NCBI GenBank assembly: GCA_018818885.1
Contig: JAHIRB010000035.1
Span: 1-55,995 of the forward strand
DNA length: 55,995 bases
Reading direction: 5' to 3'
Source: Patescibacteria group bacterium
GTDB taxonomy: Bacteria; Patescibacteriota; Patescibacteriia; Buchananbacterales; SURF-54
In this document: piece by piece, positions 16,549-31,454 of the stretch
Position numbering within the stretch: position 1 is the stretch's first letter
Layout of the letters: each line of letters begins with the position of its first letter
The notes under the pieces: model-generated
Seen by the model: the letters and a program-made list of their open reading frames with translations, nothing else
Told to the model about the DNA's origin: nothing
Databases searched by the model: none
Translations under genes and position numbers: made by a program

Positions 16549-17469
16549 ATGAATAAAAAGTCAAATAAAAAAGTAATAGTCATTTTAGGTCCAACAGCAT
16601 CTGGTAAAACAAAACTGGCTGTTAAATTAGCCAGCAAGTTTAATGGTGAAATAATTTCCGCAGATTCACGGCAAGTTTATGTTGATATGGATATTGGAAC
16701 AGGAAAAGATTTAGCAGAATATATAGTCAAGGTACAAGGTACAAGGTACAAGGTACCATATCATTTAATTGATGTCGTTTCGCCTAAATCTCAGTTTACG
16801 GTAGGTGTGTATCAAAAATTAGCCAACATAGCTATCCAGGATGTCATAAAACGTCAAAAATTGCCCATTATATGCGGTGGAACTGCTTTTTATATTCAGT
16901 CAATAGTAGATGGTATTGTATTGCCTCCTAAGACTTCAAGTCAGTTACGTCAAAAATTGAATAAGCTGACATTGAAGCAGCTATTAGTTAAATTGAAAAA
17001 ACTTGACTCAGCATCATATCGTCAAATAGACAAAAAGAACAGAAGGCGAGTGCAGCGTGCAGTTGAGGTGTGCTTGTATACAAGTGAAAAATTTTCATCA
17101 TTTGGCCAAAAACAAAAAATAGACTATGAGTTTTTGATCTTAGGATTAACTTGGCCAAGAGAAGTTTTGAAAAAAAGAAGCACCAAGAGACTAAAAGTCA
17201 GGCTTGAAAAAGAAGGTATGATCAATGAGGTTAAAAGATTGCATAAACAAGGAGTCAGTTGGAAAAGAATGGATGAGTTTGGCTTGGAATATCGCTGGGT
17301 TTCTAGATATCTTCAAAAGAAAATCACATATGACGAAATGTTTGAAGGTTTGAATAATGATATTAATAATTTTGCTAAAAGGCAGATGACGTGGTTTAAA
17401 AAAGATAAGAGGATTAAGTGGGTGAAGAATTATAAATCAGCAAAAAAATTAGTAAAGGAATTTTTATAG
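16549..17469 (+). CDS. miaA: tRNA dimethylallyltransferase
   Basis: GPTASGKT, IISADSRQVY, GGTAFY, AKRQMTWF. Confidence 0.97.
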   Translation: MNKKSNKKVIVILGPTASGKTKLAVKLASKFNGEIISADSRQVYVDMDIGTGKDLAEYIVKVQGTRYKVPYHLIDVVSPKSQFTVGVYQKLANIAIQDVIKRQKLPIICGGTAFYIQSIVDGIVLPPKTSSQLRQKLNKLTLKQLLVKLKKLDSASYRQIDKKNRRRVQRAVEVCLYTSEKFSSFGQKQKIDYEFLILGLTWPREVLKKRSTKRLKVRLEKEGMINEVKRLHKQGVSWKRMDEFGLEYRWVSRYLQKKITYDEMFEGLNNDINNFAKRQMTWFKKDKRIKWVKNYKSAKKLVKEFL

Positions 17470-18276
17470 CGGGCTTTTAATTTTTTTAAGCCGAGGATTG
17501 GTTACCTGTGTATATATTTGAGTGGTTCTGATATTTTGATGGCCAAGCAATTCCTGTACGTAGCGCACGTCAACGCCGTTTTCCAACAGGTGAGTGGCAA
17601 AACTATGGCGCAAACTGTGAAAGGTCGCGTTTTTTTTGATGTTTGCTTTTTTTAACGAATTAGCAAACACTTTTTGTGCGGTTCTTTCTGTAAGTTTGCC
17701 CCCACGCTCACTTGAAAAGATATAGTCATTTTTATCTTTTCCAGCAATAAGATTTTGAAGGTCAATTTTTAATTTTTCAGGCATAATGGTAATTCTGTCC
17801 TTTTTTCCCTTAGCTTGCCTGATGTGAATTGTTAGCTCCAAAAGGTCAAGATCTTGTATCTTAAGATTGATAATTTCGCTTACCCTTAAGCCTGATCCAT
17901 AAGCTAAAGATAAAAGCAGTTTATGTTTGTTATTAGTTGTAACTTCAATAATTTTTTTAATTTCATTTCTTGATAAAACAACAGGCAAGAATTTATTTCT
18001 CTTAGCTATTCTTATCTGAATTGGGGTGAAGGATTTGGCGACGTCACGATAATAAAATTTAATCGCATTCAAATAAAGATTCCGCGTCTGGACCGAGATA
18101 GCCTTTTCTTCAGCATAAAGCAGGAAGTTTTTGATATTTTCCTCATCTAATTTTTCTAAGCCACTTTGCTTAAAGGTAAAATATTCTTTTAAGCCATAAA
18201 CATAGCTTTTTATGGTTTTTTGGCTAAAATTGCGTATTTTTAATTCACGCTTTACTTTCTCTAGTTCTTTTTGCAT
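17464..18276 (-). CDS. IntI-like tyrosine recombinase lacking the IntI-specific insertion
   Basis: N-terminal SAM-like domain (RNFSQKTIKSY); catalytic R (GLRVSE), K (KGKKDR), HSLRH, LGH, Y (TTQIY); C-terminal SPL; 3' end overlaps miaA by 6 nt. Confidence 0.93.
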   Translation of the reverse strand: MQKELEKVKRELKIRNFSQKTIKSYVYGLKEYFTFKQSGLEKLDEENIKNFLLYAEEKAISVQTRNLYLNAIKFYYRDVAKSFTPIQIRIAKRNKFLPVVLSRNEIKKIIEVTTNNKHKLLLSLAYGSGLRVSEIINLKIQDLDLLELTIHIRQAKGKKDRITIMPEKLKIDLQNLIAGKDKNDYIFSSERGGKLTERTAQKVFANSLKKANIKKNATFHSLRHSFATHLLENGVDVRYVQELLGHQNIRTTQIYTQVTNPRLKKIKSPL

Positions 18277-19587: not shown

Positions 19588-19608
19588 AAAATTTTGATAA
19601 ATTACATC

Positions 19609-20526: not shown

Positions 20527-20558
20527 GAAATTCGCCAGCAATTTAACTAATAAAACAG

Positions 20559-21068
20559 ATGTCGGAAATTTTTGAAATTAAAGAAAGCGGCAGTTTGGGC
20601 CGAGGATTATTCGCCACAAAGCTAATAAAAAAAGGCGAGAAAATTTTAGAATTCACGGGTCCAATTATCTCTATCAAGGAGGCACTGCAAAAACCACCAG
20701 AAAAATTATCATGCCCTTTGCAAATCGGGCCGACCGAATATATAGACATACAAGAACCTGGCGTTTTAGCTAATCATTCTTGCTCGCCAAATGCTGGCGT
20801 AAAAAATGATCATTACCTTGTGGCTATCCAAGACATCTTACCTGGCAATGAAATTTTTTATGATTATTCAACGACAATGGATGAAGATAATTGGACCCTA
20901 GAATGTAAATGCGGAAGCCCAAACTGCCGCCACATCATAGGAGATTTCCGACATCTTCCGATCGAAGTTCAAAAAAAATATTTAGAATTAAATATAGTCC
21001 AGTCCTTTATTGCGAAAAAATTGCTGGCGAACATCGCACAACACGGCATATCCGGCTCAGAAAATTGA
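20559..21068 (+). CDS. cassette 2: SET-domain protein with post-SET motif
   Basis: GRGLFA, ANHSCSPN, EIFYDY, CKCGSPNCR. Confidence 0.92.
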   Translation: MSEIFEIKESGSLGRGLFATKLIKKGEKILEFTGPIISIKEALQKPPEKLSCPLQIGPTEYIDIQEPGVLANHSCSPNAGVKNDHYLVAIQDILPGNEIFYDYSTTMDEDNWTLECKCGSPNCRHIIGDFRHLPIEVQKKYLELNIVQSFIAKKLLANIAQHGISGSEN

Positions 21069-21164
21069 CACAATTAAATTTAAAAGGGGTGTCAATTTTC
21101 TTCGACCCAAATTTTTGTTCCGCTACGCTACACAAAACCTTCGGATAATGCCGATACGTTATAC
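21036..21164 (+). other. attC-like site 2
   Basis: GCACAAC-A-CGGCATATCCG ... CGGATAATGCCG-ATAC-GTTATAC. Confidence 0.85.
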
Positions 21165-21229
21165 GACATTGCCCTTCGCCCGCCTAGAATGTAAACTTTT
21201 ATATATTTAGCAAATCTTTTCAAATTATT

Positions 21230-22081
21230 ATGATTAAAACCAAAGTCCTAAAGAAGATAAGCCAACAACAACTGGATAAAAAACTAAAGCTCAATATAGA
21301 GAATAAATATGTTGAGGGAGAACAATGGTTCAAAAATCCAGAATTATGGTATGAATTAACAGCTTTTTCAAATCCTTACATAACTGTTTACTCTGAACTT
21401 GTTCTGTTAATTCAAAATCTGAATAAAATTTCTGGATTTTTATCTGACAAAGCTTTAGTTTTTTATGGTCTTGGCACAGGAGATACAGAAATTATTTTAG
21501 TCAATTCTATACTTCAAAAAGAAAAAGTTGTTGATGTTGTTGGCTTAGAAATACAAGCACAATTTATCGATGGATTTATTCAATCCCTTCAAAATATCGC
21601 CCTTGAAAATGATGAATATGAAATAAACTTTTTGGGTATTCATGGATTATTTCAAGATACAAAAAAAGAATATTTGAAAATTAACAATAAAAAACAAGCT
21701 CACATAATTTTAGGAAATACTATAGGTAATTTTAAAGAAGAAGAAATTTTTCAAATCTTCAATAACTTGATGAACAAGGGCGATATTTTACTCGCAGGAT
21801 TTCAAACAGATGAAAACATGAATAAAGTTTTCAAGCAATATTCAGAGAATAAAATGTTTAACAATTTCATTAGAAAAACAATCCCAAATTGCGATGAACT
21901 AAAATGGAAGATCAATCAAGAAGAATCGCAAATTGAAGCATGGAGTGGTGACGTGCTTGTTTTTCATTCAAAAAAGAAAAATCCTGCGAGTATGATAAAT
22001 TGTGTCAAGGACTTTGGTTTTAAAAAGTTGTATAGTACAAACGATACTAATTCTTGTATTCAGATATTTGAAAAGATTTGA
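21230..22081 (+). CDS. cassette 3: SAM-dependent methyltransferase, EgtD-like
   Basis: YGLGTGD motif I; LGNTIGNF; GD.LL.GF. Confidence 0.7.
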   Translation: MIKTKVLKKISQQQLDKKLKLNIENKYVEGEQWFKNPELWYELTAFSNPYITVYSELVLLIQNLNKISGFLSDKALVFYGLGTGDTEIILVNSILQKEKVVDVVGLEIQAQFIDGFIQSLQNIALENDEYEINFLGIHGLFQDTKKEYLKINNKKQAHIILGNTIGNFKEEEIFQIFNNLMNKGDILLAGFQTDENMNKVFKQYSENKMFNNFIRKTIPNCDELKWKINQEESQIEAWSGDVLVFHSKKKNPASMINCVKDFGFKKLYSTNDTNSCIQIFEKI

Positions 22082-22144
22082 ACGGCGGGCTACGGGCAAC
22101 GCTTCGGGGACGCTGCGCTTTCGTCGCTATCGCTCCTCACCCTC

Positions 22145-22240
22145 GTATAACAAGGATTATGAGGAAAATGGCTCAGCTCGCCATTTTCCCAAATTTGCTC
22201 CACTGCGTTCCGCAAACTTCTCATAATCCTGACGTTATCG
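22145..22240 (+). other. attC-like site 3 (shortest, 96 bp)
   Basis: GTATAAC-A-AGGATTATGAG ... CTCATAATCCT-GAC-GTTATCG. Confidence 0.88.
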
Positions 22241-22259
22241 GAAATAATTTTAGGCTCTT

Positions 22260-22694
22260 ATGAACGAAGAACAATCAAAAAAAATTATGAGGCTTGCTAT
22301 TGAGGAGGCAAAGAAATCCTCAGAACCACTGAAGTGTGGTGTTGTCATTGTTAAGAATGAAGAGGTGATTGCGAAAACATACAACTCTCAGCGAGAATCA
22401 AAAAATTCTTCAGCCCATGCTGAAATAAAAGCTTTAGGAGTGGCTGGACAGATAGTGGACAATAAAAATCTTGATGGTTGCGACATTTTTTGTACTTGTG
22501 AACCGTGTATTATGTGTGTTTCCGCAATCACTTTTGCAAAAATTAGGCGTCTTTATTATGGGATTTCTTTGTCTGACGTTTCACCGAAAGATAAACGAAT
22601 AGATATCAGTATTGATGAATTTTTCCAAAAATCGCCTCATAAATTCGAAGTGATAAAGAATTTTTTAGAAGAAGAATGCAAGGTACTAATTTGA
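22260..22694 (+). CDS. cassette 4: zinc-dependent nucleoside deaminase
   Basis: HAE and PCIMC zinc motifs. Confidence 0.92.
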   Translation: MNEEQSKKIMRLAIEEAKKSSEPLKCGVVIVKNEEVIAKTYNSQRESKNSSAHAEIKALGVAGQIVDNKNLDGCDIFCTCEPCIMCVSAITFAKIRRLYYGISLSDVSPKDKRIDISIDEFFQKSPHKFEVIKNFLEEECKVLI

Positions 22695-22711
22695 TCGCCT
22701 AAAATTACATC

Positions 22712-22851
22712 CGATAACAGCGTGTATGAGGTTCAAAAAAAGTGCGTTAATAATACCTAAAGGCTGCACTTTTTCTTTCACCCAAATTTCGCCTCCTATA
22801 TAATTAAAATAAGGAAGTCGGCGAAACTTCTCATACACGCAAACGTTAGGC
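22712..22851 (+). other. attC-like site 4
   Basis: CGATAAC-A-GCGTGTATGAG ... CTCATACACGC-AAAC-GTTAGGC. Confidence 0.9.
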
Positions 22852-22879
22852 GAAATAAGATTTAAACAAAAATTATTTT

Positions 22880-23149
22880 ATGGCAACAAAACCTTGGACA
22901 AGAAATCAAAAAATTGCTGTATGGGGGGTTATAGCCGTAATCATTATGGGTGTACTCGGATGGTTTATTAAAATAGATTTAGAAATATCTTATATACAAA
23001 GTCAAATTGAACAAATTCAGATAGATAAAGCGAACATAAAATCATTAGTTGTTGATGAATTTTTAAAAACCTGCCCACCAGGAACAACTACTTCGACTAT
23101 TGAATTTGTCGATGAAGGAATTAAATTTGGATGTATAATCCCAGAATAA
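22880..23149 (+). CDS. cassette 5: single-TM hypothetical protein
   Basis: 89-aa ORF filling the cassette. Confidence 0.75.
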   Translation: MATKPWTRNQKIAVWGVIAVIIMGVLGWFIKIDLEISYIQSQIEQIQIDKANIKSLVVDEFLKTCPPGTTTSTIEFVDEGIKFGCIIPE

Positions 23150-23190
23150 TTTTTGTTTAAATCTTACTCTCCGCTCCGCCCTATCGGGTC

Positions 23191-23733
23191 GCCTAACACG
23201 GGCTAGCCGGTTCGCAGTATGCACTTTGAAACAAACATTTTTAGGAAGCTGCCCAAATCAACCAAAGGAGGCCTACTATGATTTTGGGATTAACAAAAGA
23301 AGATTTAGAGAAACCAACAATTACAGAGGTAGAAGAAGTTCGCGTACATGACGGAAGGGGGGGTGCTGCCACAGTACGAGTCGGCGATCAAGTTGAAGTT
23401 TTCAAACCAGAAGAAAATAAATTGACTCTGGCCTATCTCGGCCCCGGGCCATACACTATTGAATGGACGGCGCAATGGAGATGTGGCCGAGATTTCCTTC
23501 AACTGACAACGCCGACAAAAGGTAAGGGCAAAGGCGTTAACGCTTCCAAATTTCAAATCGTCTCATAGTTTCATTATGGACGCACAAAAACGGGAAGGCA
23601 TACTTTCGCCTTCCCGCTTCCTAAAAATGTTTGTTTATTTATCACGCTCACCCAAATCCCACACCTATTTTAGTAAATTTCAAATAATAGCACAAAATAT
23701 GTGAGGGACTTCGGCTAGCCCGAAACGTTATGT
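23191..23733 (+). other. attC-like site 5 (543 bp, carries a gene)
   Basis: GCCTAAC-A-CGGGCTAGCCG ... CGGCTAGCCCG-AAAC-GTTATGT. Confidence 0.88.
23278..23568 (+). CDS. hypothetical protein inside attC5
   Basis: AAGGAGG SD; enclosed by a perfect 21-bp IR (23229-23249/23616-23636). Confidence 0.8.
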   Translation: MILGLTKEDLEKPTITEVEEVRVHDGRGGAATVRVGDQVEVFKPEENKLTLAYLGPGPYTIEWTAQWRCGRDFLQLTTPTKGKGKGVNASKFQIVS

Positions 23734-23770
23734 GAAATTTATTTTTGTTTTTATCTAATAAACACGTAAT

Positions 23771-24202
23771 ATGAATAAATCTTTTTCTCTTTTTCTCGAA
23801 CAACTAAAAAAACTTAATCTACCAAAAGGCAAATTCGCTATTTTCGGAAGTGGCCCCCTGGGTATAAGAAATATCAGAGACACCCATGATCTTGATCTTA
23901 TTGTAGATGAATCGCTTTTTGACGAGTATAAAAATATGCCGAGCTGGGAGTTTAAAAGTTTTGACAGAGATGATCGTCATGTTGAGATGATTGAAAATAG
24001 CGGAATTGAGTTCTACAAAACATGGGGGCCGGGCGATTGGGATACTCGCCAGTTAATTGATAATGCGGAAATTATTGATAATTTGCCTTTTGTAAAATTA
24101 GAGGAAGTAAAAAAGTGGAAGAAAATATCAGGAAGAGAAAAAGATTTAAAAGATGTCCAACTAATAAACGAGTATTTGGAAAAGTCACAAAAACAAAAAT
24201 AA
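23771..24202 (+). CDS. cassette 6: putative minimal nucleotidyltransferase-fold protein
   Basis: FGSGPL...DTHDLDL (GS plus DxD). Confidence 0.6.
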   Translation: MNKSFSLFLEQLKKLNLPKGKFAIFGSGPLGIRNIRDTHDLDLIVDESLFDEYKNMPSWEFKSFDRDDRHVEMIENSGIEFYKTWGPGDWDTRQLIDNAEIIDNLPFVKLEEVKKWKKISGREKDLKDVQLINEYLEKSQKQK

Positions 24203-24207
24203 ACATC

Positions 24208-24337
24208 ACATAACAAAGAGTATGCGGTTCAGGAATTTTTCATTTATAATTTAATAAGGAGTAAAAAATTCCTTCACCCAAATTTTTTGTTCCGCTATCG
24301 CTACACAAAAAACTTCGCATACTCTTAAACGTTATGT
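24208..24337 (+). other. attC-like site 6
   Basis: ACATAAC-A-AAGAGTATGCG ... CGCATACTCTT-AAAC-GTTATGT. Confidence 0.9.
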
Positions 24338-24435
24338 GAAATATTGACTAGATTATTCTGGCATAAAATGTTTTTGCCGATAAAAAAGTCAGTGCGATTT
24401 TAAAACTGATAATCAAATAATTCCGTCAATACATC
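24332..24435 (+). other. cassette 7 body: no ORF
   Basis: ~100 bp between TTATGTGA and TCACATAA, bounded by TATTGAC/GTCAATA. Confidence 0.8.
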
Positions 24436-24585
24436 ACATAACACTGTGTATCTGGTTCCGTAAAAGAGAAAAATTAAATAATTCTCTATTTTTAAAAAGC
24501 CCTTTTTCAATTTTTTTTGACAAAGAAAAAACCGCCTCAACCTTTGTGGTATATTGGCGGTAAGCAGTCGGTCTGCTCAGTCCTT

Positions 24586-24762
24586 TTACTTTGTGCGAAA
24601 GAGCGGGCAAATCAGGTCGTGAAATTCTTTCAGTGATTCGTTCAACATGGTATGCCAAACGAATATTCCAACCTCGCGCTCTTTCAAAAGAGCAACCAAC
24701 TTTTCCGCCCTTTCCTGCAACGCGTCATGCGTAAGTTCTGTTTTTTGCTCGTTTTCAGCCAT
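24586..24762 (-). CDS. 58-aa hypothetical protein inside attC7 (below the ORF-track cutoff)
   Basis: MAENEQKTELTHDALQERAEKLVALLKEREVGIFVWHTMLNESLKEFHDLICPLFRTK; GAAAGGAG SD, own promoter, terminator ACCGCC/GGCGGT. Confidence 0.75.
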   Translation of the reverse strand: MAENEQKTELTHDALQERAEKLVALLKEREVGIFVWHTMLNESLKEFHDLICPLFRTK

Positions 24763-24820
24763 TTCTACTTCTCCTTTCAGGTTAGTTGGTAATATTTAAT
24801 ACCAAATTTGGTATCGTTGC

Positions 24821-24849
24821 ATTGTAGCAGAAAACTGTCCCTCTGTCAA
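24821..24849 (-). promoter_or_regulatory. promoter of antisense module in attC7
   Basis: TTGACA-17-TACAAT with TGn extension. Confidence 0.85.
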
Positions 24850-25033
24850 GTCCAGCGACCAAAAAAAATTGAAAAAGGGCTTTAATAAGGTAAATTATTT
24901 AATTTTTCTTTTTTACTCCACCCAAATTTTTGCCTTTCCTTTCTTTTAGAATATAATAAGGAAGAAAGGCAAAAACTTCAGATACACAGAAACGTTAGGC
25001 GAAATTAATTTATTAACCTTTAATCAAAATCAT

Positions 25034-25249
25034 ATGGAAAAATTTGAAAGAGCTCCACAAGAGCCACAATCAACGGAAGAGGCAGTATCACGTTTTCTTG
25101 ACGGAGATAATAATGCCGCAGTGTCTTTTTTGCGAAATCACCGCGATGAAATCGGTGAATTCTGTTTACAAATCCGCGACACATACCAAAAAAATGACAC
25201 TGCGACTCCTTTTTTGGAATTGGCAAAGTTAATTGATTCGTTGCTATAA
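25034..25249 (+). CDS. cassette 8: hypothetical protein
   Basis: 71-aa ORF filling the cassette. Confidence 0.7.
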   Translation: MEKFERAPQEPQSTEEAVSRFLDGDNNAAVSFLRNHRDEIGEFCLQIRDTYQKNDTATPFLELAKLIDSLL

Positions 25250-25270
25250 ACGGTTAATAAATTAACTATC

Positions 25271-25411
25271 GCCTAACAGCGTGTATGAGGTTCAAGAAAA
25301 AGTGCGTTAATAATTTTCAGCGGTTGCACTTTTTCTTTCACCCAAATTTCGCCTCCTCTATAATGAAAATAAGGAAGTCGGCGAAACTTCTCATACACGC
25401 AAACGTTATGT
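25271..25411 (+). other. attC-like site 8 (near-copy of site 4)
   Basis: GCCTAAC-A-GCGTGTATGAG ... CTCATACACGC-AAAC-GTTATGT. Confidence 0.9.
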
Positions 25412-25523
25412 GAAATAGCCAGAAATTTTTTTATTATTTTTTAGATTTTTTTTGGCAATTTATTTCGGTCGAACATAGCTTGTGATATAATTTAATCAGC
25501 TTAATAATTTAACCAATAAAATT

Positions 25524-25802
25524 ATGAAAAACCCAGAAATGAGTCCTGAGCAACCAAAAAAGTGGGAAACTCTAACCACTGAGCAAATAATTGAGAGGAT
25601 AAAATCAAACTCTGAAGCACAAGAAAAAGCTTTTGGTAGTGTTCTTACTGAAGAACAGTTTAAAGAAAGATTTCCTCATAATTCAGCAAAAGTCGAAGAT
25701 ATTCAAAATATGATGCTAGCGTTAGGGTTAGAGCTTCCCACTCAAGAAGATGTAGAGCAAATGATGCAACAAGGCGAAGAAAATGATCAGGAAGAAAAAT
25801 AA
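25524..25802 (+). CDS. cassette 9: acidic hypothetical protein
   Basis: 92-aa ORF; TGnTATAAT upstream. Confidence 0.75.
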   Translation: MKNPEMSPEQPKKWETLTTEQIIERIKSNSEAQEKAFGSVLTEEQFKERFPHNSAKVEDIQNMMLALGLELPTQEDVEQMMQQGEENDQEEK

Positions 25803-25846
25803 ATTGCCAAAAAATACATTAAGGAAAAGAAATTTCTGTCTACATC

Positions 25847-26350
25847 ACATAACATGTTGTATCTGGCTACGCTAAATAATAATTTATTTTCTCTACTTAT
25901 ATGGGTATCAAAGTTGAATTTAACCCCGACCTCGCTTTAAGGAATATTTCCGAATTTAAAAACGGTAATCGTAAAATTGAAGAATGTATTCCTGAAAGCC
26001 TTGAGGAAGGCAAAACATATCCGTTTTTAAAATGCGATCAACGTAATTACTGGCTTTATGGTGCAATACCTTTAATCGAAACCAAAGGCAATGAGATTTT
26101 ATCACGTCCTAAGGCTAAAATTATTCTGCTGGAAGCCACGCACTTTGCTGTTGATAACGTAACGTATACTAAAGGCTTTTACAAAGTAATTGAGGTCTTT
26201 AAGGATGACGATATACATTTTGAATGTTTTGATCCGGTGGGAACGAGAAAATAAATTATTATTTAGCTCCGCCCAAATTTCTTCTTCTTTTTTATTATTA
26301 ATTTAATAATGAAGCGAAGAAGAAACTTCAGATACAACAAAACGTTATGT
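25847..26350 (+). other. attC-like site 9 (504 bp, carries a gene)
   Basis: ACATAAC-A-TGTTGTATCTG ... CAGATACAACA-AAAC-GTTATGT. Confidence 0.88.
25901..26254 (+). CDS. hypothetical protein inside attC9
   Basis: 117-aa ORF enclosed by a perfect 23-bp IR (25871-25893/26245-26267). Confidence 0.8.
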   Translation: MGIKVEFNPDLALRNISEFKNGNRKIEECIPESLEEGKTYPFLKCDQRNYWLYGAIPLIETKGNEILSRPKAKIILLEATHFAVDNVTYTKGFYKVIEVFKDDDIHFECFDPVGTRK

Positions 26351-26383
26351 GAAAAACAATAAATTCATAATAACATATAAATA

Positions 26384-27034
26384 ATGGGGTTCAATAAAAA
26401 GGAAGTTAATAAACTATTAGCATCTTGCCACAGAAGATGCTGCATTTGCCATAAATTCTGCGGGGTCAAAATGGAAACTGATCATATCGAACAAAAATTC
26501 ATCTCGCAGAATGATTCTATTGAAAATGCAATTCCAGTCTGTTTTGAATGTCATGCCGAAATCCATCTTTATAATGACAAACATCCACGTGGCAGAAAAT
26601 TTTCATCCGAAGAGTTGCATGAGCATAAGCGTCAATGGCTGGAAATATGCGAAAAAAATCCTGAGATGTTTATTCAACCACTCCAAAGAAGTGATGTAGG
26701 TCCTCTTCAGTCGTTGGCAGATGAACTAAAATTCAATGTAGCTATCAAACAGTATCAAGATTCTAATGTTGGATATTTCTGTCCTTTTGAGGTTAAGCAG
26801 TTTGACAGATCATTAAATGATGGCTATATCTCTATATTAAATGATAGTTTAGCAGATTCCTTAACTAACACTTATATTCAAATTAAATTGGCAAATACAG
26901 CACTCAATGCTATTACTTCGGCGCCTTGTGAAAGAGATCGAGGATTAGCCAAAAATAGACTCCAAGATGTATTAAGAATAATGGGTACAAAGATTGATGA
27001 AACTTATAAATTGCTTAAAAATCAATTAGAGTGA
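26384..27034 (+). CDS. cassette 10: HNH endonuclease domain protein
   Basis: CCIC...DHI...N.I.VCFECH..IH. Confidence 0.85.
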   Translation: MGFNKKEVNKLLASCHRRCCICHKFCGVKMETDHIEQKFISQNDSIENAIPVCFECHAEIHLYNDKHPRGRKFSSEELHEHKRQWLEICEKNPEMFIQPLQRSDVGPLQSLADELKFNVAIKQYQDSNVGYFCPFEVKQFDRSLNDGYISILNDSLADSLTNTYIQIKLANTALNAITSAPCERDRGLAKNRLQDVLRIMGTKIDETYKLLKNQLE

Positions 27035-27100
27035 ATTTATTGTTCTTCGCCTAACACGGGTTAGCCGGTTCACGCTGGCTAAATAAAATTATTCAATATT

Positions 27101-27676
27101 ATGAAAACTATTATAAAATTAATAAATCTAGCGGCCCTACTTGGGTCAGTTGCATGGCTATCCAAAGATACTAATTGGGAACCATTACTATTATTTCTTG
27201 CCTTATTAGCCGCATTCTTAGGGCAGGAAATCTTACCAACAATTAAAAAAGTGAACAAAGAAGACAAAAAGCTAGGAGAATTATTTCTTAAAGAATTCCC
27301 CTCAAACGGTAAAAGTTGCTTATTTTTAAAAGAACATGAGCTACACAATCCATTCCGCCAATCACAACTTGATGAAATTGAAAAATTCTTAAGTGAATGG
27401 GATAACACCGAACATGAGTTCTTAAATAAAAAATTAGAAAGAATAAAAAAAGAACTACTCTCTAAAATTAATAAATTTTTATCTTCGTTGTTTACTTTGG
27501 TAAGAGCCCATGATAGTGATGTTAATATATTAACAACCAAGCTAAGCGGGGCGTACAATAAAGAGGTAGAAGAAGAAAATGATTTAAAAATAGCTGGACT
27601 AAACAAAATGGCAACTGATATATATAAAAAACATCAAATACTAACAAAAAAGATAAAAAGAATCTTAAATTCTTAG
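27101..27676 (+). CDS. N-terminally membrane-anchored hypothetical protein inside attC10
   Basis: 191 aa, two N-terminal hydrophobic segments; 20-bp IR 27081-27100/27679-27698. Confidence 0.8.
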   Translation: MKTIIKLINLAALLGSVAWLSKDTNWEPLLLFLALLAAFLGQEILPTIKKVNKEDKKLGELFLKEFPSNGKSCLFLKEHELHNPFRQSQLDEIEKFLSEWDNTEHEFLNKKLERIKKELLSKINKFLSSLFTLVRAHDSDVNILTTKLSGAYNKEVEEENDLKIAGLNKMATDIYKKHQILTKKIKRILNS

Positions 27677-27729
27677 CTAATATTGAATAATTTTATTTTT
27701 AACGCTTGCTAATAAAATAATTTAAAAAT

Positions 27730-28023
27730 ATGGAAAATCAAATATTTAAAAAATTTACCTTATGGGATTCAGTAGTTTTACTGGTTTTAATACTTATTGC
27801 TATACCATCAATACTTGGAGTATTAGAAGCTGTAACTGGTCAAGACTATTATCAAATGACGGTTTATCTTTTTATATCGGCTATAATCTTGTTTGGAATT
27901 TTCAAATATTCAAAAAAGTTGGTGAGCAATATAAAAAATGCAGAAACTAAAAAAAGAGCAACTATAATATCAGCAGTATTGATAATCATTACCCTGCTAT
28001 TCTTTTTCAGACTATTTTTTTAA
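27730..28023 (+). CDS. 3-TM hypothetical protein inside attC10
   Basis: 97 aa; 18-bp IR 27711-27728/28017-28034. Confidence 0.75.
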   Translation: MENQIFKKFTLWDSVVLLVLILIAIPSILGVLEAVTGQDYYQMTVYLFISAIILFGIFKYSKKLVSNIKNAETKKRATIISAVLIIITLLFFFRLFF

Positions 28024-28217
28024 ATTATTTTATTTAACGCGCTCACCCAAATCCCGCCATGGGCGGGACTTCGGCTAACCCGAAACGTTAGGTAACATTT
28101 TATTCAAAATCTTTTAAATTTAATAATAGAGCCCTTTTGAAATTTTTTAAGAAAAAAGAAAGGGCTCCGCTCACTATTTTTAGTGGGGAGCCCTGATGAG
28201 CGGAGGACGCACGACAG

Positions 28218-28655
28218 TCACTTGAGGCGCGAGACTGCCTCGACGCCACTCATAGTTCTGCCAGTGGCGCAATCCATCACGAAGCTGCCGACTGACGACC
28301 CCGCCTTGATCATGGCGAGCCACTGGTCGTAGGTCGCCGTCGCGTACGGTCCGGCCGAGGCCTTGTTGTCGGCGAGCCAGCGTGCGAGCGCTTCGGGCGT
28401 TTCCATCACAGGCGAGATTGGTGTCCCTTCCGTGACGGACTCATACATCTGGTAGTGCGTGCGTTCCGACTCCGGCCACTGCGGCATGACGTCGCATCCG
28501 TAGTTCGGCGGGTCGTTGTTGAGCCAGCCGTCACGTAGTCCCTCCACAATCTCTTCCTCGTCGTACGGGAAGTGCTCGTGCATGGGGATGTGGTGGCCGT
28601 TCTCGTCCTTGGGGTGTTCCCAGTTTGCGGGAACTCTGCGAGCTTCTGTACTCAT
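28218..28655 (-). CDS. cassette 11: antisense, GC-rich hypothetical protein
   Basis: 145 aa; GAGGAGG SD; 42/60 and 38/60 G+C in two lines counted; GGGCTCC/GGAGCCC terminator. Confidence 0.85.
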   Translation of the reverse strand: MSTEARRVPANWEHPKDENGHHIPMHEHFPYDEEEIVEGLRDGWLNNDPPNYGCDVMPQWPESERTHYQMYESVTEGTPISPVMETPEALARWLADNKASAGPYATATYDQWLAMIKAGSSVGSFVMDCATGRTMSGVEAVSRLK

Positions 28656-28717
28656 GGCTTTGTCCTCCTCTTTGGTTGTTTTATGTGCAATTTAACGCCA
28701 AAATTAGCGTTCATATT

Positions 28718-28746
28718 AGTATAGCATAAAACTGATAACCTGTCAA
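28718..28746 (-). promoter_or_regulatory. promoter of antisense module in cassette 11
   Basis: TTGACA-17-TATACT with TGn extension. Confidence 0.85.
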
Positions 28747-28807
28747 GCTCGCGACCAAAAAAATTTCAAAAAGGCTCTAATAATAAGGTATTTTTGAATA
28801 AAACATC

Positions 28808-29253
28808 ACCTAACACCTGCTATCTGACTCCGCCTTTCGATAAATAATTTTTAACCACTTAATATGGAAACTTTAGAAAACTTTATAGAAAAACTTGACG
28901 AAAAAACTGAGATTGAAATAGCAAACTTTTTAAATGCAAGCCAAGATTCAAAAAGAGATTCAATAAAAGCTATTTTAGATTCTAGAATTATAAAAAATTT
29001 ACAGCAACTAACTAAAACAATCGAAGAAAATAACATAAAAACAGAAAACTATAATACTACACTAACTAAACTTACAAAATGGATTTTTATATTTACAGTT
29101 GTGATGACTATTGCAACAATAATCAGTTTATTCAAAGGTTAAAAATTATTTATCGGGCGTCGCGCAAATTGCTCATTCGCTTACGTGATGACCTCCAGTT
29201 AATTATATCACGACGCGAATTTCGCAACTTCAGATAGCAGGGTAACGTTATGT
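28808..29253 (+). other. attC-like site 11 (446 bp, carries a gene)
   Basis: ACCTAAC-A-CCTGCTATCTG ... CAGATAGCAGG-GTAAC-GTTATGT. Confidence 0.82.
28864..29142 (+). CDS. coiled-coil protein with C-terminal TM, inside attC11
   Basis: 92 aa; perfect 19-bp IR 28838-28856/29137-29155. Confidence 0.78.
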   Translation: METLENFIEKLDEKTEIEIANFLNASQDSKRDSIKAILDSRIIKNLQQLTKTIEENNIKTENYNTTLTKLTKWIFIFTVVMTIATIISLFKG

Positions 29254-29307
29254 GATGTTTGGCTTTTACTTAGTACAATTAATAATTTATAATTTAATAA
29301 AACCATT

Positions 29308-29469
29308 ATGAACAAAACAACAAAAATCACATTACTTATTATTGCTGGTTTATTAGTGTTTAACGGATTAATCAATATTTCCGACAATGGAGGAGTTTTA
29401 GCCTATGACATTGCTTCCATTTTATCTGGAATTGGATTTATTGTTGTTGCTCTATCTAAGAAAGCATAA
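29308..29469 (+). CDS. cassette 12: 53-aa 2-TM protein (below the ORF-track cutoff)
   Basis: MNKTTKITLLIIAGLLVFNGLINISDNGGVLAYDIASILSGIGFIVVALSKKA; fills the cassette. Confidence 0.75.
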   Translation: MNKTTKITLLIIAGLLVFNGLINISDNGGVLAYDIASILSGIGFIVVALSKKA

Positions 29470-29481
29470 AAGCCGAACATC

Positions 29482-29678
29482 ACATAACAGCGTGTATCTG
29501 GTTACGGAAAATTGGCGTTAATTAAATCCTTAAGGAATGCCAATTTTCCTCCGCCCAAATTTTCATCCCTTTACAAGATGAGGATTTGGGTGGGGTTCTG
29601 TTAAAAAGTGTCGTCTGATAATCAAAATTTAACCTATTTAATCGGGATGAAAACTTCAGATACACGCGAACGTTATAT
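29482..29678 (+). other. attC-like site 12
   Basis: ACATAAC-A-GCGTGTATCTG ... CAGATACACGC-GAAC-GTTATAT. Confidence 0.88.
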
Positions 29679-29698
29679 GAAATAATAATTTTATTTTT

Positions 29699-30169
29699 AT
29701 GTCAGATAAAATAAACAAATGCCTAGATGATTTAAGATATGCTTATAAATGTAACGTGCCTTTGGGATAAGTACTCGAATCATATAGTTTTTACGCTGAT
29801 CCTAAATATGTCACAATAGAAACTTACAAAAATTTTTGCGTGTTTGTTTATAAAACGGATATTGATAACGAGGGAATTTTAAAAAAAGCTAAAAAATATC
29901 CCGATTACGAAACTTATATAAGTGACAAAAGTAGTTTTGCAAAATTTTTTATTGAACGCGGTCCAAGATTAGATACGCCCAAAAAGAAACGAATTAAAAA
30001 ATATACTACCTATTCAGCGCATGGACATTTCCAAACCAATAATCCTATTTCTGCTTTTTTAAACTTCATAGCGATGTTGCCCGCTTATATATTAATGATG
30101 ACTATCGCCGGAATCGCAAAGATTTTTGTAAGTTTCTTTGACCTGTTCAAATCTAACAAAGAAAAATAA
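29699..30169 (+). pseudogene. cassette 13 gene with in-frame TAA at codon 24
   Basis: ATG 29699 is in frame with ORF 29840; single TAA at 29768-29770, frame otherwise open. Confidence 0.65.
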
Positions 30170-30251
30170 AATTATTACATCGTATAACACGGCGTATACG
30201 ACATTTGTTTATCCACTAAAACCCGGGGGAGTCGTTCGCGAACGGCTTCTC

Positions 30252-30300
30252 TTGACAAAAATAATCAGGCTGATATAATTGTAATACAATGTATTACAAT
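30252..30300 (+). promoter_or_regulatory. TA promoter and operator
   Basis: TTGACA-16-TGnTATAAT followed by palindrome ATTGTAATACA-A-TGTATTACAAT (30278-30300). Confidence 0.85.
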
Positions 30301-30312
30301 TAATCTATTTCT

Positions 30313-30528
30313 ATGAGACAAGTAATTAACATCTCCTTACCTAAACAAACAGCCCATGAAGTCAAATCTGCCGTTAAAAGAGGCAATTATCTCAGCGTCA
30401 GTGAGTTTTTTCGTGATTTATTAAGAGATTGGCAGGCAGGTAATCTTCTTAATGAATTAAACCAAAGTAGAAAAGAAATTAAAGCGGGCAAGGGCAAAAC
30501 CTTAAAATCCTTAAAGGATTTAAGGTAA
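30313..30528 (+). CDS. ribbon-helix-helix antitoxin (ParD/CopG-like)
   Basis: VINISLP...G.Y.SVSEFFRDLLR; upstream of RelE-like toxin. Confidence 0.85.
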   Translation: MRQVINISLPKQTAHEVKSAVKRGNYLSVSEFFRDLLRDWQAGNLLNELNQSRKEIKAGKGKTLKSLKDLR

Positions 30529-30534
30529 TTTTTT

Positions 30535-30792
30535 ATGGAAATTATTTATTCCTCAAAGTTTGCCCGTGAATATAAGAAACTGCCAAAAAAAGTAAAGGCA
30601 ACGGCGGAAGAGCACGAAACAATATTCAGACAGAACCCCCGAGATCCAAGATTAAACACGCACAAACTTCATGGCAGACTTAAAGAATTCTGGTCTTTTT
30701 CAATCGGGAACAAATACCGAATTATTTTTGAATTTGGCAATGACACTACAATTTGCTTGCATTTAGTCGGCAATCATGATATTTACCAATAA
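30535..30792 (+). CDS. RelE-superfamily mRNA interferase toxin (YafQ/YoeB-like)
   Basis: YSSKFAREYKKL, HKLHGRLKEFWSFSI, YRIIF, VGNHDIY. Confidence 0.9.
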   Translation: MEIIYSSKFAREYKKLPKKVKATAEEHETIFRQNPRDPRLNTHKLHGRLKEFWSFSIGNKYRIIFEFGNDTTICLHLVGNHDIYQ

Positions 30793-30908
30793 ACAAACGT
30801 CGCATACGCTGGAACGTTAGGCGAACTTTATATGATCCTGATGTTATGCAATTACATAATTTAACACGAAAAAAGAATTTTTAGAATGTAGATTATAATC
30901 TAGAAATT

Positions 30909-31373
30909 ATGAGCAAAAATAATATGAAAAGTATTATCTTCCCCAAGGTTAAAGAGTGGTTTTTAAGATACATACTCGCAGAAATAGTAGCCATCATAGG
31001 TGCTATGGTGGGAGGTCTATTAGCATATTACTTTTTTAACAACCTTGTTGCTACTGCTCTCGGTGGAACTTGGGGCGAAAATATTGGTTATTATGGACAA
31101 ATAATATATAGTGATTTAAAAAAGAGCAAACAAAAAGACGGAAAAATTACATTTATTATTGTTCTTAAACTTATAAGAAACGCCATTATAGAATTTGGGC
31201 CAGGGGAGTATCTTGATAGCTTTCTTATTCGTCCTATTACCATGTATTTTTTTATAAGCGTAGTTGGTAGTCTTCCTGTTGGGTTATTCCTTGGCAAAAT
31301 AAGTGCTGATGTCATTTTTTATATACCTACAATTACTGCATACGAGTTTCAAAAAAAATACATTAAAGATTAA
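30909..31373 (+). CDS. membrane protein, hypothetical, outside the last attC
   Basis: 154-aa hydrophobic ORF; no downstream R'' site found. Confidence 0.75.
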   Translation: MSKNNMKSIIFPKVKEWFLRYILAEIVAIIGAMVGGLLAYYFFNNLVATALGGTWGENIGYYGQIIYSDLKKSKQKDGKITFIIVLKLIRNAIIEFGPGEYLDSFLIRPITMYFFISVVGSLPVGLFLGKISADVIFYIPTITAYEFQKKYIKD

Positions 31374-31454
31374 TATTTTTTTGTTATTTAGGAACTCCGA
31401 ATCGGAATCTCGCGTAAGCGTATATGCTAGATCCTAAATTTAATTCAGAATTAC

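What the first reader, a model, noticed from the sequence alone, without database searches (positions are those of the whole stretch)
24496..28790. One promoter-bearing antisense expression shell used in both cargo slots
attC7 arm A (24496-24883) and the body of cassette 11 (28128-28778) hold unrelated minus-strand genes inside homologous shells. Each has an A(A/G)AGCCCTTTT..AATTTTTT IR (24/24 and 20/21 bp) and a right end TGTCAAG-N4/5-GCGAC-CAAAAAAA.TT..AAAAAGG.CT.T-AATAA..GGTA. The TTGACA-17-TGn-10 promoters sit at the same position with a shared CAGTTTT.TGCTA spacer. Both transcripts would start with a hairpin (24799-24814, 28694-28711) and end in a terminator. This looks like a reusable shell that expresses captured genes independently of Pc.
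Basis: seen in the sequence. Interest (0 to 1): 0.72.

Follow-up and report, generated by a model that had tools for sequence, protein, structure and literature searches.

The report
Reusable promoter shell for integron cassettes
Two unrelated backward-facing genes in this integron-like gene array sit in the same conserved "expression shell" (inverted-repeat ends, strong promoter, leader hairpin, terminator), and the same shell carries about 40 other unrelated genes in other Patescibacteria, so it looks like a natural plug-in expression chassis that has not been described.

Summary
Shell 1 (24496-24883) and shell 2 (28120-28786) share 20-29 bp terminal inverted repeats, a TTGACA-17-TGnTAnnnT promoter on the minus strand, a hairpin after the -10 box, a Shine-Dalgarno site, one ORF (58 aa or 145 aa, unrelated) and an intrinsic terminator.

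Pattern scans of public metagenomes and genomes recovered 56 further distinct shells, nearly all in Patescibacteria MAGs, carrying about 40 unrelated cargo ORFs.

- The hairpin shows compensatory changes and a sense-strand-only U.G pair.
- Both insertion sites recur: the loop of one attC arm, and a whole cassette body.
- Wherever the Xer/IntI-like recombinase is nearby (15 loci), the shell points the same way as it.
- Cargo averages 10.7 GC points above the host locus.
- Homology of the 145-aa cargo to a shell-free copy covers only the ORF plus terminator.

Best reading: a conserved, self-contained expression and insulation module for reverse-oriented cassettes. Its nested inverted repeats keep the recombination-site fold closed around the cargo.

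How cargo is loaded is unknown. No target-site duplication, empty site or transposase was found, which argues against a simple transposon. I found no description in the literature.

The parts
24460..24483 (.). Outer stem, left arm. This is the attC arm-A hairpin that encloses shell 1.
   Evidence: 24 nt, 96% complementary to 24893-24916. It pairs in the ssDNA MFE and centroid folds. The same stem flanks shells in L126, L127, L160, L162 and L171.
24496..24519 (.). Shell 1 terminal inverted repeat, terminator-side arm (AAAGCCCTTTTTCAATTTTTTTTG).
   Evidence: 24/24 complementary to 24860-24883. This TIR family is conserved in 58 shells. Arm variants are matched within each shell.
24520..24561 (-). 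Shell 1 intrinsic terminator: hairpin ACCGCC...GGCGGT plus a UUUUUUCUUUG tract.
   Evidence: Fold of -19 kcal/mol. The same hairpin plus T-tract ends shells with unrelated cargo in L007, L045, L120, L150 and L171.
24586..24762 (-). Shell 1 cargo: a 58-aa protein predicted as one long alpha-helix, function unknown.
   Evidence: No Pfam hit. Only 3 homologue clusters were found, all inside shells. Differences are third-codon-position biased: 35 of 49 against L007. AF2 pLDDT 84, helix over residues 12-56.
24770..24777 (-). Shell 1 Shine-Dalgarno site (AAGGAG on the minus strand).
   Evidence: Read from the sequence. AAGGAGG lies 5-9 nt before the start codon in most shells.
24799..24814 (-). Shell 1 leader hairpin (AUACCAAAUUUGGUAU), at or near the predicted 5' end of the transcript.
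   Evidence: Fold z-score -3.6. In the family alignment 96% of cells are paired against 84% in shuffles (0/500), and 5 of 8 pairs show compensatory changes.
24821..24849 (-). Shell 1 promoter, TTGACA-17-(TG)C-TACAAT.
   Evidence: 11/12 with TG. Family statistics: TTGACA 45/49, 17-bp spacer 46/49, TG 41/49.
24860..24883 (.). Shell 1 terminal inverted repeat, promoter-side arm. Its A/T tracts lie at about -38 to -60, so it could act as an UP element.
   Evidence: The UP-element reading is inference.
24884..24892 (.). Asymmetric flank AATAAGGTA (ACCTTATT on the gene strand), always on the promoter side.
   Evidence: A CCTTA-like motif lies within 22 nt of the promoter-side TIR in 46 of 58 shells. 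Empty arm-A loops in these arrays also contain TAATAAGG.
24893..24916 (.). Outer stem, right arm (attC arm A).
28087..28109 (.). Outer stem of cassette 11, left arm. It includes the R' box GTTAGGT of the preceding attC.
   Evidence: 23 nt, 87% complementary to 28792-28814. It pairs in the ssDNA fold.
28120..28148 (.). Shell 2 terminal inverted repeat, terminator-side arm (core AGAGCCCTTTTGAAATTTTTT from 28128).
28150..28193 (-). Shell 2 intrinsic terminator (GGGCUCC...GGAGCCC plus a U-tract).
   Evidence: Fold of -24.1 kcal/mol, z -4.3. The homologous terminator follows the same gene where it occurs without a shell, in L012.
28218..28655 (-). Shell 2 cargo: a 145-aa protein of a large uncharacterised family. 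It is 62% GC in a 35% GC genome.
   Evidence: About 1,920 homologues, none named. GC values. AF2 pLDDT 89.5 with no PDB or BFVD match at E<=0.001.
28664..28671 (-). Shell 2 Shine-Dalgarno site (GAGGAGG).
   Evidence: Read from the sequence.
28694..28711 (-). Shell 2 leader hairpin (AACGCUAAUUUUGGCGUU) with a U.G pair that forms only on the sense strand.
   Evidence: The leader is nearly identical to that of the unrelated 60-aa gene in L004.
28718..28746 (-). Shell 2 promoter, TTGACA-17-(TG)C-TATACT.
   Evidence: 11/12 with TG.
28758..28786 (.). Shell 2 terminal inverted repeat, promoter-side arm, followed by the AATAATAAGGTA flank.
28792..28814 (.). Outer stem of cassette 11, right arm. It includes the R'' box ACCTAAC of the cassette's own attC.
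17464..18276 (-). Context: the array's tyrosine recombinase (270 aa, Xer/IntI-like), on the same strand as both shells.
   Evidence: NF040815 at 225 bits (cut-off 220). TIGR02249 integron integrase at 223 bits (cut-off 265). Homologues at 49-62% identity lie next to shells in 15 loci, always co-oriented.

Best explanation
The shell is a conserved, self-contained expression and insulation chassis used by a family of integron-like gene cassettes in Patescibacteria. It serves genes that lie backwards in the array, where the array promoter cannot reach them.

On the gene strand it reads as follows:
- outer stem;
- CCTTA flank;
- inverted-repeat arm, A/T-rich and possibly an UP element;
- near-consensus extended -10 sigma-70 promoter;
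- an 8-bp hairpin at the 5' end of the mRNA, most likely a stabiliser;
- a conserved leader and a consensus Shine-Dalgarno site;
- one variable ORF, rarely two expression units;
- an intrinsic terminator with a conserved UUUUUUCUUU tract;
- the second inverted-repeat arm and the second outer stem.

Shown here:
- the architecture and its recurrence with about 40 unrelated cargos;
- covariation in the hairpin;
- complementarity of the two arms;
- a fixed orientation relative to the flanks and to the recombinase;
- the compositionally foreign cargo.

Inferred:
- Transcription starts about 7 nt after the -10 box, at the foot of the hairpin.
- The terminator stops read-through into the neighbouring recombination site.
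- When the DNA is single-stranded, the nested inverted repeats (outer stem plus shell arms, about 45-50 bp) zip up and extrude the cargo as a loop. The attC arm or the cassette ends then keep the fold that the recombinase needs, despite a 250-940 bp insert.

Unknown: how a new ORF plus terminator is placed between the leader and the terminator-side arm.
For: Recurrence:
- Scans of metagenome contigs and genome contigs gave 56 further distinct TIR-to-TIR shells of 248-938 bp.
- They carry 44 cargo clusters among 56 ORFs. ORFs start at shell position about 95-130, after AAGGAGG.

Promoter: TTGACA in 45/49, 17-bp spacer in 46/49, TG in 41/49, TATACT in 31/49. The window's two sites are the top scores in their region.

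Hairpin:
- 96% of cells are paired against 84% in shuffles (0 of 500 reach the observed value).
- 5 of 8 pairs have double changes.
- U.G stands at one pair in 24 of 31 sequences. This would be a C.A mismatch on the other strand, so the signal is sense-strand specific.

Terminators: every shell ends with a hairpin, a TTTTTTCTTT tract and then the TIR.

Arms and stems:
- Six TIR variants are matched on both arms of the same shell.
- Outer stems have at least 14 matched bases in 51 of 58 shells, median 20.
- ssDNA folds of attC7 plus shell 1 and of cassette 11 pair the outer stem and the TIR around the cargo, z -9.3 and -7.7.

Orientation: the shell is co-directional with the recombinase and upstream of it in 15 of 15 loci.

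Cargo:
- ORF GC is 47.5% against 36.8% for the locus, higher in 44 of 47 loci, p=2e-13.
- DNA homology between shell 2 and the shell-free copy in L012 runs only from the start codon to the terminator T-tract.
- The 58-aa ORF is under purifying selection.

Shell 2's leader is nearly identical to the leader of an unrelated gene in L004.
Against:
- The structural 'seal' role of the inverted repeats rests on predicted ssDNA folds and on analogy with attC folding. Matched arms would also be expected if one protein bound both ends.
- The promoter-leader module also occurs without a TIR nearby in L062, L064 and L081. It occurs with only the terminator-side TIR in L009, L034 and L078. The TIR is therefore not obligatory for the expression function.
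- The shell is rare: 4 of 401 sampled genomes of the phylum have an exact promoter-side match.
- A naive ORF census of the arrays was too noisy to show that every backward gene uses a shell.
Confidence: 0.7

Rival explanations
1. The shell is a non-autonomous cargo-carrying transposon, like a mobile insertion cassette or a MITE with a passenger gene. A transposase encoded elsewhere would recognise the terminal inverted repeats and insert the unit into A/T-rich hairpin loops next to TAAGG.
For: - Conserved 20-24 bp TIRs are present.
- The shell sits in two kinds of site and in at least seven outer-stem families.
- Related cargo occurs in both kinds of site.
- Empty arm-A loops carry the TAATAAGG motif that flanks the shell.
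Against: - There is no consistent target-site duplication.
- No empty hairpin with the same stems exists in 179 loci or in the genome.
- No shell carries a transposase, and no further copies exist in this genome.
- The TIR subtype (CAAT against GAAA) covaries with the flank class, so shell and flank evolve as one unit.
- Where cargo is shared between slots, the promoter and leader class differs. What is shared is the ORF plus terminator, not the TIR-to-TIR unit.
Confidence: 0.1
2. The inverted repeats are recombinase sites. The shell would then be a third-level site-specific module, either an invertible segment or a nested cassette handled by the array's Xer/IntI-like enzyme.
For: - Inverted sites flanking a promoter-bearing segment resemble invertons.
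- The whole array is built of nested inverted-repeat-bounded units (notes e1-5221976 and e1-5221979).
- The recombinase is always nearby.
Against: - The orientation is fixed. The CCTTA flank is on the promoter side in 46 of 58 shells, and no flipped copy was seen.
- Inverting a self-contained promoter-gene-terminator unit would not switch anything.
- The TIR has no R-box (GTTRRRY) or 11-6-11 core.
Confidence: 0.08
3. The conserved palindrome after the -10 box is a DNA operator for a repressor, so the shell is a regulated unit rather than a constitutive one. This modifies the best explanation and does not exclude it.
For: - The palindrome overlaps the predicted start site, a classical operator position.
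- Shell 1's version is a perfect 16-bp palindrome.
- The terminal TA cassette in the same array has such an operator.
Against: - 24 of 31 sequences have a U.G pair, which is a mismatch in duplex DNA symmetry.
- Stem sequences change freely while pairing is kept. This fits an RNA or single-strand structure better than a protein-read palindrome.
- No conserved regulator gene accompanies the shells.
Confidence: 0.1
4. There is no dedicated function. The two window copies are simply related cassettes, and their flanks look alike through recent common descent.
For: Only two copies exist in this genome.
Against: - The same framework occurs in MAGs labelled as several Patescibacteria lineages, with about 40 unrelated cargos.
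- The hairpin shows compensatory changes.
- The framework is kept while the cargo of related shells has diverged at most synonymous sites.
Confidence: 0.02

Closest known systems
Cassette-borne promoters of integron gene cassettes (cmlA1, ereA, toxin-antitoxin cassettes of chromosomal integrons; review PMC8876359; Vibrio rotiferianus array, PMC2945992)
   Same: A cassette carries its own promoter, so it is expressed regardless of Pc and of its position. TA cassettes with their own promoter are well known, and one is present in this array at 30313-30792.
   Different: The known examples are gene-specific promoters in that gene's own 5' UTR, described as 'numerous and diverse'. Here one homologous promoter, leader, terminator tract and inverted-repeat frame is shared by about 40 unrelated ORFs across several Patescibacteria lineages, and it also sits inside attC arms.
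Conserved attC families of sedentary chromosomal integrons (e.g. Vibrio cholerae repeats). From my own knowledge.
   Same: A lineage-specific conserved non-coding frame is attached to highly diverse, mostly ORFan genes. This implies that cassettes are made or re-made within the lineage.
   Different: The conserved frame here brackets the ORF on both sides and includes expression signals. It is additional to, and nested within or beside, the attC.
Mobile insertion cassettes and MITEs with passenger genes or promoters (IS231-type MICs in Bacillus cereus, PMC6542083; Tn3-type MICs in Xanthomonas, PMC4337579; Correia elements, from my own knowledge)
   Same: Short TIR-bounded units without a transposase, sometimes carrying variable passenger genes or outward promoters.
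   Different: No target duplication, no empty sites and no matching transposase were found. The TIR subtype covaries with the flanking stem, and the unit is confined to integron-like arrays.
Invertons, i.e. invertible promoter switches such as fimS. From my own knowledge.
   Same: Inverted repeats flank a promoter, and a tyrosine recombinase is encoded nearby.
   Different: The gene and terminator lie inside the repeats together with the promoter, and only one orientation is seen.
5'-terminal stem-loop mRNA stabilisers (ompA leader in E. coli, ermC and aprE leaders in Bacillus). From my own knowledge.
   Same: A short hairpin within a few nucleotides of the 5' end, upstream of a strong Shine-Dalgarno site.
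   Different: The function here is only inferred from position and covariation. No Rfam family matches.

Membership tests
Integron gene cassette | Bounded by attC-type sites with R'' (RYYYAAC) and R' (GTTRRRY) boxes that pair | tested here: met
   Shell 2 lies between GTTAGGT (28087) and ACCTAAC (28808), which pair over an extended 23 nt. Shell 1 lies inside attC7, between ACATAAC at about 24446 and GTTAGGC at about 25003. Class Ia loci show the same layout. No attC covariance model was available to run.
Integron gene cassette | Array adjacent to an integron integrase (IntI) with the IntI-specific extra domain | tested here: inconclusive
The recombinase at 17464-18276 passes NF040815 'XerA / integron integrase' (225 bits, cut-off 220). 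It scores 223 against the TIGR02249 cut-off of 265, matching in two stretches.
Integron gene cassette | Promoterless ORF oriented to be read from Pc | tested here: not met
   The cargo is on the opposite strand to the other cassette ORFs and has its own 11/12 promoter. It is co-oriented with the recombinase in 15 of 15 loci.
TIR transposon / mobile insertion cassette | Terminal inverted repeats | tested here: met
   24/24 and 29 nt at 90%. Mean arm identity is 89% across 58 shells.
TIR transposon / mobile insertion cassette | Target-site duplication of fixed length | tested here: not met
   The flanks of shells 1 and 2, L004, L007 and the listing show no common duplication. AATAAT at shell 2 is not reproduced elsewhere.
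TIR transposon / mobile insertion cassette | Empty target sites, or an autonomous partner with the same ends | tested here: not met
   No short-loop hairpin with any of six outer stems exists in the loci or the genome. No shell holds a transposase. No TIR hits in viral contigs.
Inverton (invertible promoter) | Both orientations of the IR-flanked segment occur | tested here: not met
   The asymmetric CCTTA flank is on the promoter side in 46 of 58 shells, and no flipped copy was seen.
Sigma-70 extended -10 promoter | -35 and -10 hexamers, 17-bp spacing, TG at -15/-14 | tested here: met
Sigma-70 extended -10 promoter | Transcription initiates there | not testable with these tools
Rho-independent terminator | GC-rich hairpin followed by a U-tract at the 3' end of the gene | tested here: met
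   Folds of -19 and -24 kcal/mol followed by UUUUUUCUUUG and UUUCUUUUUUCU. Present in all shells. The simple scanner missed them because their loops exceed 8 nt.
Any Rfam RNA family | Covariance-model match | tested here: not met
   Only four sub-threshold chance hits in 24300-29000.

The most novel reading that the evidence does not exclude
The shell is the visible footprint of an undescribed gene-loading process. Foreign 'ORF plus terminator' units would be placed, precise to the ORF, behind a standard promoter, leader and Shine-Dalgarno site, and between standard inverted repeats. The loaded units are then filed by a Xer/IntI-like recombinase either as cassettes or inside attC arms. If so, these Patescibacteria arrays would offer a tractable view of how integron cassettes are made, which is a long-standing open question.
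Probability: 0.3. Interest if true: 0.88.

Novelty: new variant of a known kind. Interest (0 to 1): 0.75.

Why it matters
Integron cassettes are normally promoterless, and the few with their own promoters carry gene-specific ones. Here one homologous promoter, leader, terminator and inverted-repeat frame is wrapped around dozens of unrelated, compositionally foreign small genes. That amounts to a natural expression vector inside a recombination platform.

It matters for three reasons:
- It narrows the boundaries of what is "captured" to the ORF plus its terminator. This bears on the unsolved origin of gene cassettes.
- It suggests that nested inverted repeats let bulky or inverted cargo sit even inside a recombination site without destroying its fold.
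- It provides a compact promoter, stabiliser and terminator set that presumably works in Patescibacteria. These organisms have almost no genetic tools.

Tried and rejected
- A fuzzy-regex search of the genome timed out. I replaced it with blastn-short.
- An exact right-end pattern search in 60 relatives found nothing. The shell is sparse: 4 of 401 genomes of the phylum.
- Rfam gave no family.
- Cargo annotation gave almost nothing: Pfam 3 DUF hits of 37, PHROGs 5 of 37, PADLOC 0 of 37.
- The 145-aa cargo has no PDB sequence hit, and its confident AF2 model has no PDB or BFVD fold match.
- The 58-aa cargo is a single helix, so I ran no fold search on it.
- Viral contigs gave no TIR hits. The two promoter-pattern hits (L183, L184) were not inspected.
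- A search for empty hairpins with the shells' outer stems found none.
- A naive strand census of array ORFs was too noisy to use.
- Much of the metagenome promoter-pattern output was an unrelated promoter repeated in many contigs, several labelled human gut (TTGACAGAAAACGTAGGAGTTGGTAAAAT...). I discarded these as false positives.
- I considered and rejected a transposon, an inverton and plain common descent. See the rival explanations.

Full report
**1. The observation**

The region was read on both strands.

- Shell 1 has perfectly complementary 24-nt arms at 24496-24519 and 24860-24883.
- Shell 2 has 29-nt arms, 90% complementary, at 28120-28148 and 28758-28786.
The terminator-side ends share the TIR and an A-rich tract.
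- The motif TGTCAAG-N3-6-GCGACCAAAAAAA occurs exactly twice in the 1.35-Mb genome and in none of 60 related genomes.
- blastn-short finds no further copy of either end in the genome.

Expression signals:

- The two minus-strand promoter-like sites are the best-scoring in 24300-29000, each 11/12 with a TG extension. They are TTGACA-17-TACAAT and TTGACA-17-TATACT.
- The hairpins at 24799-24814 and 28694-28711 and both terminator regions fold better than shuffled controls.
- The two ORFs (58 aa and 145 aa) are unrelated and have no Pfam domain.
- The 145-aa gene is 62% GC in a roughly 35% GC genome.

For shell 1 this is the 24-bp stem of one arm of an attC-like site. For shell 2 it is a 23-nt repeat that includes the R' and R'' boxes of the neighbouring sites.

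**2. Context**

- The array (about 19600-31400) consists of plus-strand ORFs separated by conserved, branched attC-like sites with RYYYAAC and GTTRRRY boxes.
- Several ORFs lie inside one arm of those sites.
- A 270-aa tyrosine recombinase lies at 17464-18276 on the minus strand, to the left of the array.
- It passes NCBIfam NF040815 ('XerA / integron integrase') but stays below the cut-off of the integron-integrase model TIGR02249.
- Earlier notes on the same genome describe the nested architecture, the private inverted repeats around each gene and the atypical integrase. I checked only the integrase assignment and the Pfam identity of the terminal RHH/RelE pair.
- Both shells are on the recombinase's strand, antisense to every other cassette ORF in the array.

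**3. Is the shell reused?**

The 58-aa protein has only three homologue clusters among 5.8 billion proteins. Every locus that encodes them carries the shell.

- L007 has it as a whole cassette body between R-boxes.
- L008 has a degenerate terminator-side arm.
- L003 to L006 have a two-unit shell. It holds its own promoter, a 94-aa gene and a terminator, then a second promoter, the hairpin, the 60-aa gene and a terminator, all inside one TIR pair.

The 145-aa protein belongs to a family of about 1,920 unnamed proteins. The closest relatives, at 86% identity, occur in two contexts:

- L009 to L011 have a shell whose promoter-side arm has been replaced.
- L012 to L015 have no shell.

I then scanned public collections with two cargo-agnostic patterns: promoter plus hairpin on the metagenome contigs, and TIR plus -35 on the genome contigs.

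- After false positives were removed, 58 distinct TIR-to-TIR shells of 248-938 bp remain. Two are the window's own.
- Almost all are in MAGs labelled Moran-, Falkow-, Magasanik-, Uhrbacteria, Parcubacteria or Patescibacteria. A few sit in bins with non-Patescibacteria labels, possibly mis-binned.
- 56 shells have a clear sense ORF of 42-198 aa, beginning at shell position about 95-130 after AAGGAGG.
- These ORFs fall into 44 blastp clusters, 37 with a canonical Shine-Dalgarno site.
- Cargo is almost entirely uncharacterised: 3 Pfam DUFs, 5 PHROGs and no PADLOC hit among 37 representatives.

**4. Anatomy conserved across the family**

- *Promoter*: TTGACA in 45 of 49, 17-bp spacer in 46 of 49, TG at -15/-14 in 41 of 49, TATACT in 31 of 49. 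The rest use a TGCTTAAAT variant.
- *Hairpin* (alignment A3): on 31 sequences 96% of cells pair, against 84% in shuffles (0 of 500 as high). Five of eight pairs show changes on both sides. One pair is U.G in 24 of 31 sequences, which is a C.A mismatch on the other strand. The structure is therefore constrained on the sense strand, as expected for the 5' end of the mRNA.
- *Terminator*: every shell ends with a GC-rich hairpin, a conserved TTTTTTCTTT tract and then the TIR. Some terminator hairpins are shared by shells with unrelated cargo.
- *Arms and outer stems*: at least six TIR variants are matched on both arms of a shell. Outer stems of at least 14 matched bases are present in 51 of 58 shells, median 20.
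- *Flank asymmetry*: a CCTTA-like motif lies next to the promoter-side arm in 46 of 58 shells. Only one orientation relative to the flanks was seen.
- *Predicted folds*: ssDNA folds of attC7 with shell 1 and of cassette 11 close the outer stem and the TIR around the cargo and keep the rest of the site folded, z -9.3 and -7.7.

**5. Both slots, and orientation**

The flanks fall into classes.

- *Whole-cassette shells.* Conserved outer stems such as GTTTTGTTCAAAAATAT run into the R' and R'' boxes. A normal attC with an empty arm follows.
- *Arm-A shells.* These are identical in layout to shell 1. They have the stem GTAAAAGAGAAAAATTAAATAATT and the CAAT subtype of the TIR, in L126, L127, L149, L160, L162 and L171. 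Cargo lengths range from 91 to 158 aa.

Related cargo occurs in both slot types (L114/L162, L163/L171, window shell 1/L007). The promoter and leader class then follows the slot, and what is shared is the ORF plus terminator.

A homologue of the window's recombinase (49-62% identity) lies within a few kb of a shell in 15 loci. It is always on the cargo's strand and downstream of it. In four loci the shell is the first unit next to the recombinase gene.

**6. What is cargo and what is shell**

- DNA homology between shell 2 and the shell-free L012 copy begins at the start codon and ends in the terminator's T-tract.
- Shell 2's leader is almost identical to the leader of the unrelated 60-aa gene in L004.
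- Cargo ORFs average 47.5% GC against 36.8% for their loci, and are higher in 44 of 47 (p=2e-13).
- The 58-aa gene shows third-codon-position-biased divergence.
- The 145-aa protein gives a confident model (pLDDT 89.5) with no PDB or BFVD neighbour.
- The 58-aa protein is a single long helix.

So the variable unit is roughly 'ORF plus terminator hairpin'. The constant unit is 'TIR plus promoter, hairpin, leader and probably the Shine-Dalgarno site' on one side, and 'T-tract plus TIR' on the other.

**7. Mechanism**

Best reading, at about 0.7: the shell is a self-contained expression and insulation chassis for genes that lie backwards in the array and cannot use Pc.

- A near-consensus promoter drives transcription. 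The A/T-rich promoter-side arm possibly acts as an UP element.
- The 5' hairpin most likely protects the message.
- The terminator prevents read-through into the adjacent site.
- The nested inverted repeats keep the single-stranded fold of the attC arm or cassette ends closed around the cargo.

The architecture, recurrence, covariation and orientation are shown. Initiation, stabilisation and the structural role are inferred. How cargo enters is unknown.

Rivals:

- A MIC- or MITE-like transposon is disfavoured. There is no target duplication, no empty site, no transposase, and the TIR subtype covaries with the flank class.
- An inverton or nested recombination module is disfavoured, because only one orientation is seen and flipping a self-contained unit switches nothing.
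- An operator reading of the palindrome remains possible, but the U.G pair and free stem changes favour RNA.
- Plain common descent is excluded by the breadth of the family.

Against over-reading: the promoter-leader module also occurs without a nearby TIR (L062, L064, L081). It occurs with only one TIR at what look like array edges (L009, L034, L078). The shell is also rare: 4 of 401 sampled genomes of the phylum.

**8. Comparison with what is known, and novelty**

- Cassette-borne promoters are established but are gene-specific and diverse (PMC8876359; PMC2945992).
- Conserved attC families with diverse ORFs are the nearest analogue in logic.
- TIR-bounded passenger cassettes (MICs) are the nearest analogue in shape (PMC6542083, PMC4337579).
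- Full-text searches for integrons in Patescibacteria or CPR found only resistome surveys.
- Rfam has no matching family.
- The scan's own notes hold no look-alike.

I file it as a new variant of a known kind: an integron-type cassette with its own promoter. The open possibility, at about 0.3, is that it marks an undescribed, ORF-precise gene-loading process.

**Limits**

- Only one scan each of the metagenome and genome collections was allowed, so the family census is a lower bound and depends on the patterns used.
- Several small ORF calls lack a clear Shine-Dalgarno site.

Noticed in passing
window 24340-24445: A roughly 100-bp cassette with no ORF lies between R' GTTATGT and R'' ACATAAC. 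It contains a plus-strand TTGACT-17-CATAAAAT promoter-like site, so it may be a promoter-only or small-RNA cassette.
   Followed up: no
window 30182-30822: An RHH antitoxin (30313-30528) and a RelE/ParE-like toxin (30535-30792) sit between the paired arms of the last attC-like site. They have their own TTGACA-17-TATAAT promoter and a palindromic operator. Their Pfam identities were confirmed.
   Followed up: partly
window 19668-20426, 23278-23568, 25901-26254, 27101-28023, 28864-29142: Plus-strand ORFs, including a trypsin-like peptidase, lie inside one arm of attC-like sites. Each is sealed by its own short inverted repeat and has no shell. The shell appears to be the 'public' counterpart of these private seals, used for backward genes.
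   Followed up: partly
window 17464-18276: The array's recombinase is short (270 aa). It passes the NCBIfam XerA/integron-integrase model but not the integron-integrase subfamily cut-off. Homologues at 49-62% identity accompany shells in 15 other loci.
   Followed up: partly
L004 712-1509 (also L003, L005, L006): A two-unit shell. One TIR pair encloses a first promoter (TTGACT..TATATA), a 94-aa gene and a terminator. A second copy of the standard promoter, hairpin, 60-aa gene and terminator follows.
   Followed up: partly
L062, L064, L081; L009, L034, L078: The promoter-hairpin-leader module occurs without any TIR within 200-1500 nt (L062, L064, L081). It also occurs with only the terminator-side TIR (L009, L034, L078). 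L034 and L078 share a different conserved upstream boundary (..GGACAGTAGTG..), and L009's upstream sequence differs again. These may be array edges or independent reuse of the promoter module.
   Followed up: partly
window 28218-28655 and P0002-P0120: The 145-aa cargo belongs to a family of about 1,920 unnamed proteins found in diverse genomes. It has 24 invariant residues and a confident AF2 model (pLDDT 89.5) with no match at E<=0.001 in the PDB or BFVD. It may be a new fold.
   Followed up: partly
window 21060-21112, 22735-22787, 24225-24283, 29497-29560; L022 and L142 flanks: Empty arm-A loops of the attC-like sites contain a recurring TTAATAAT...TAAGG motif. The same motif flanks the promoter side of every shell class. 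Its role is unknown.
   Followed up: no
L016, L018-L020 and about 45 other loci: The promoter-hairpin pattern also hit one unrelated, near-identical promoter (TTGACAGAAAACGTAGGAGTTGGTAAAAT...) repeated in many contigs, several labelled human gut. I treated these as false positives for this question.
   Followed up: no
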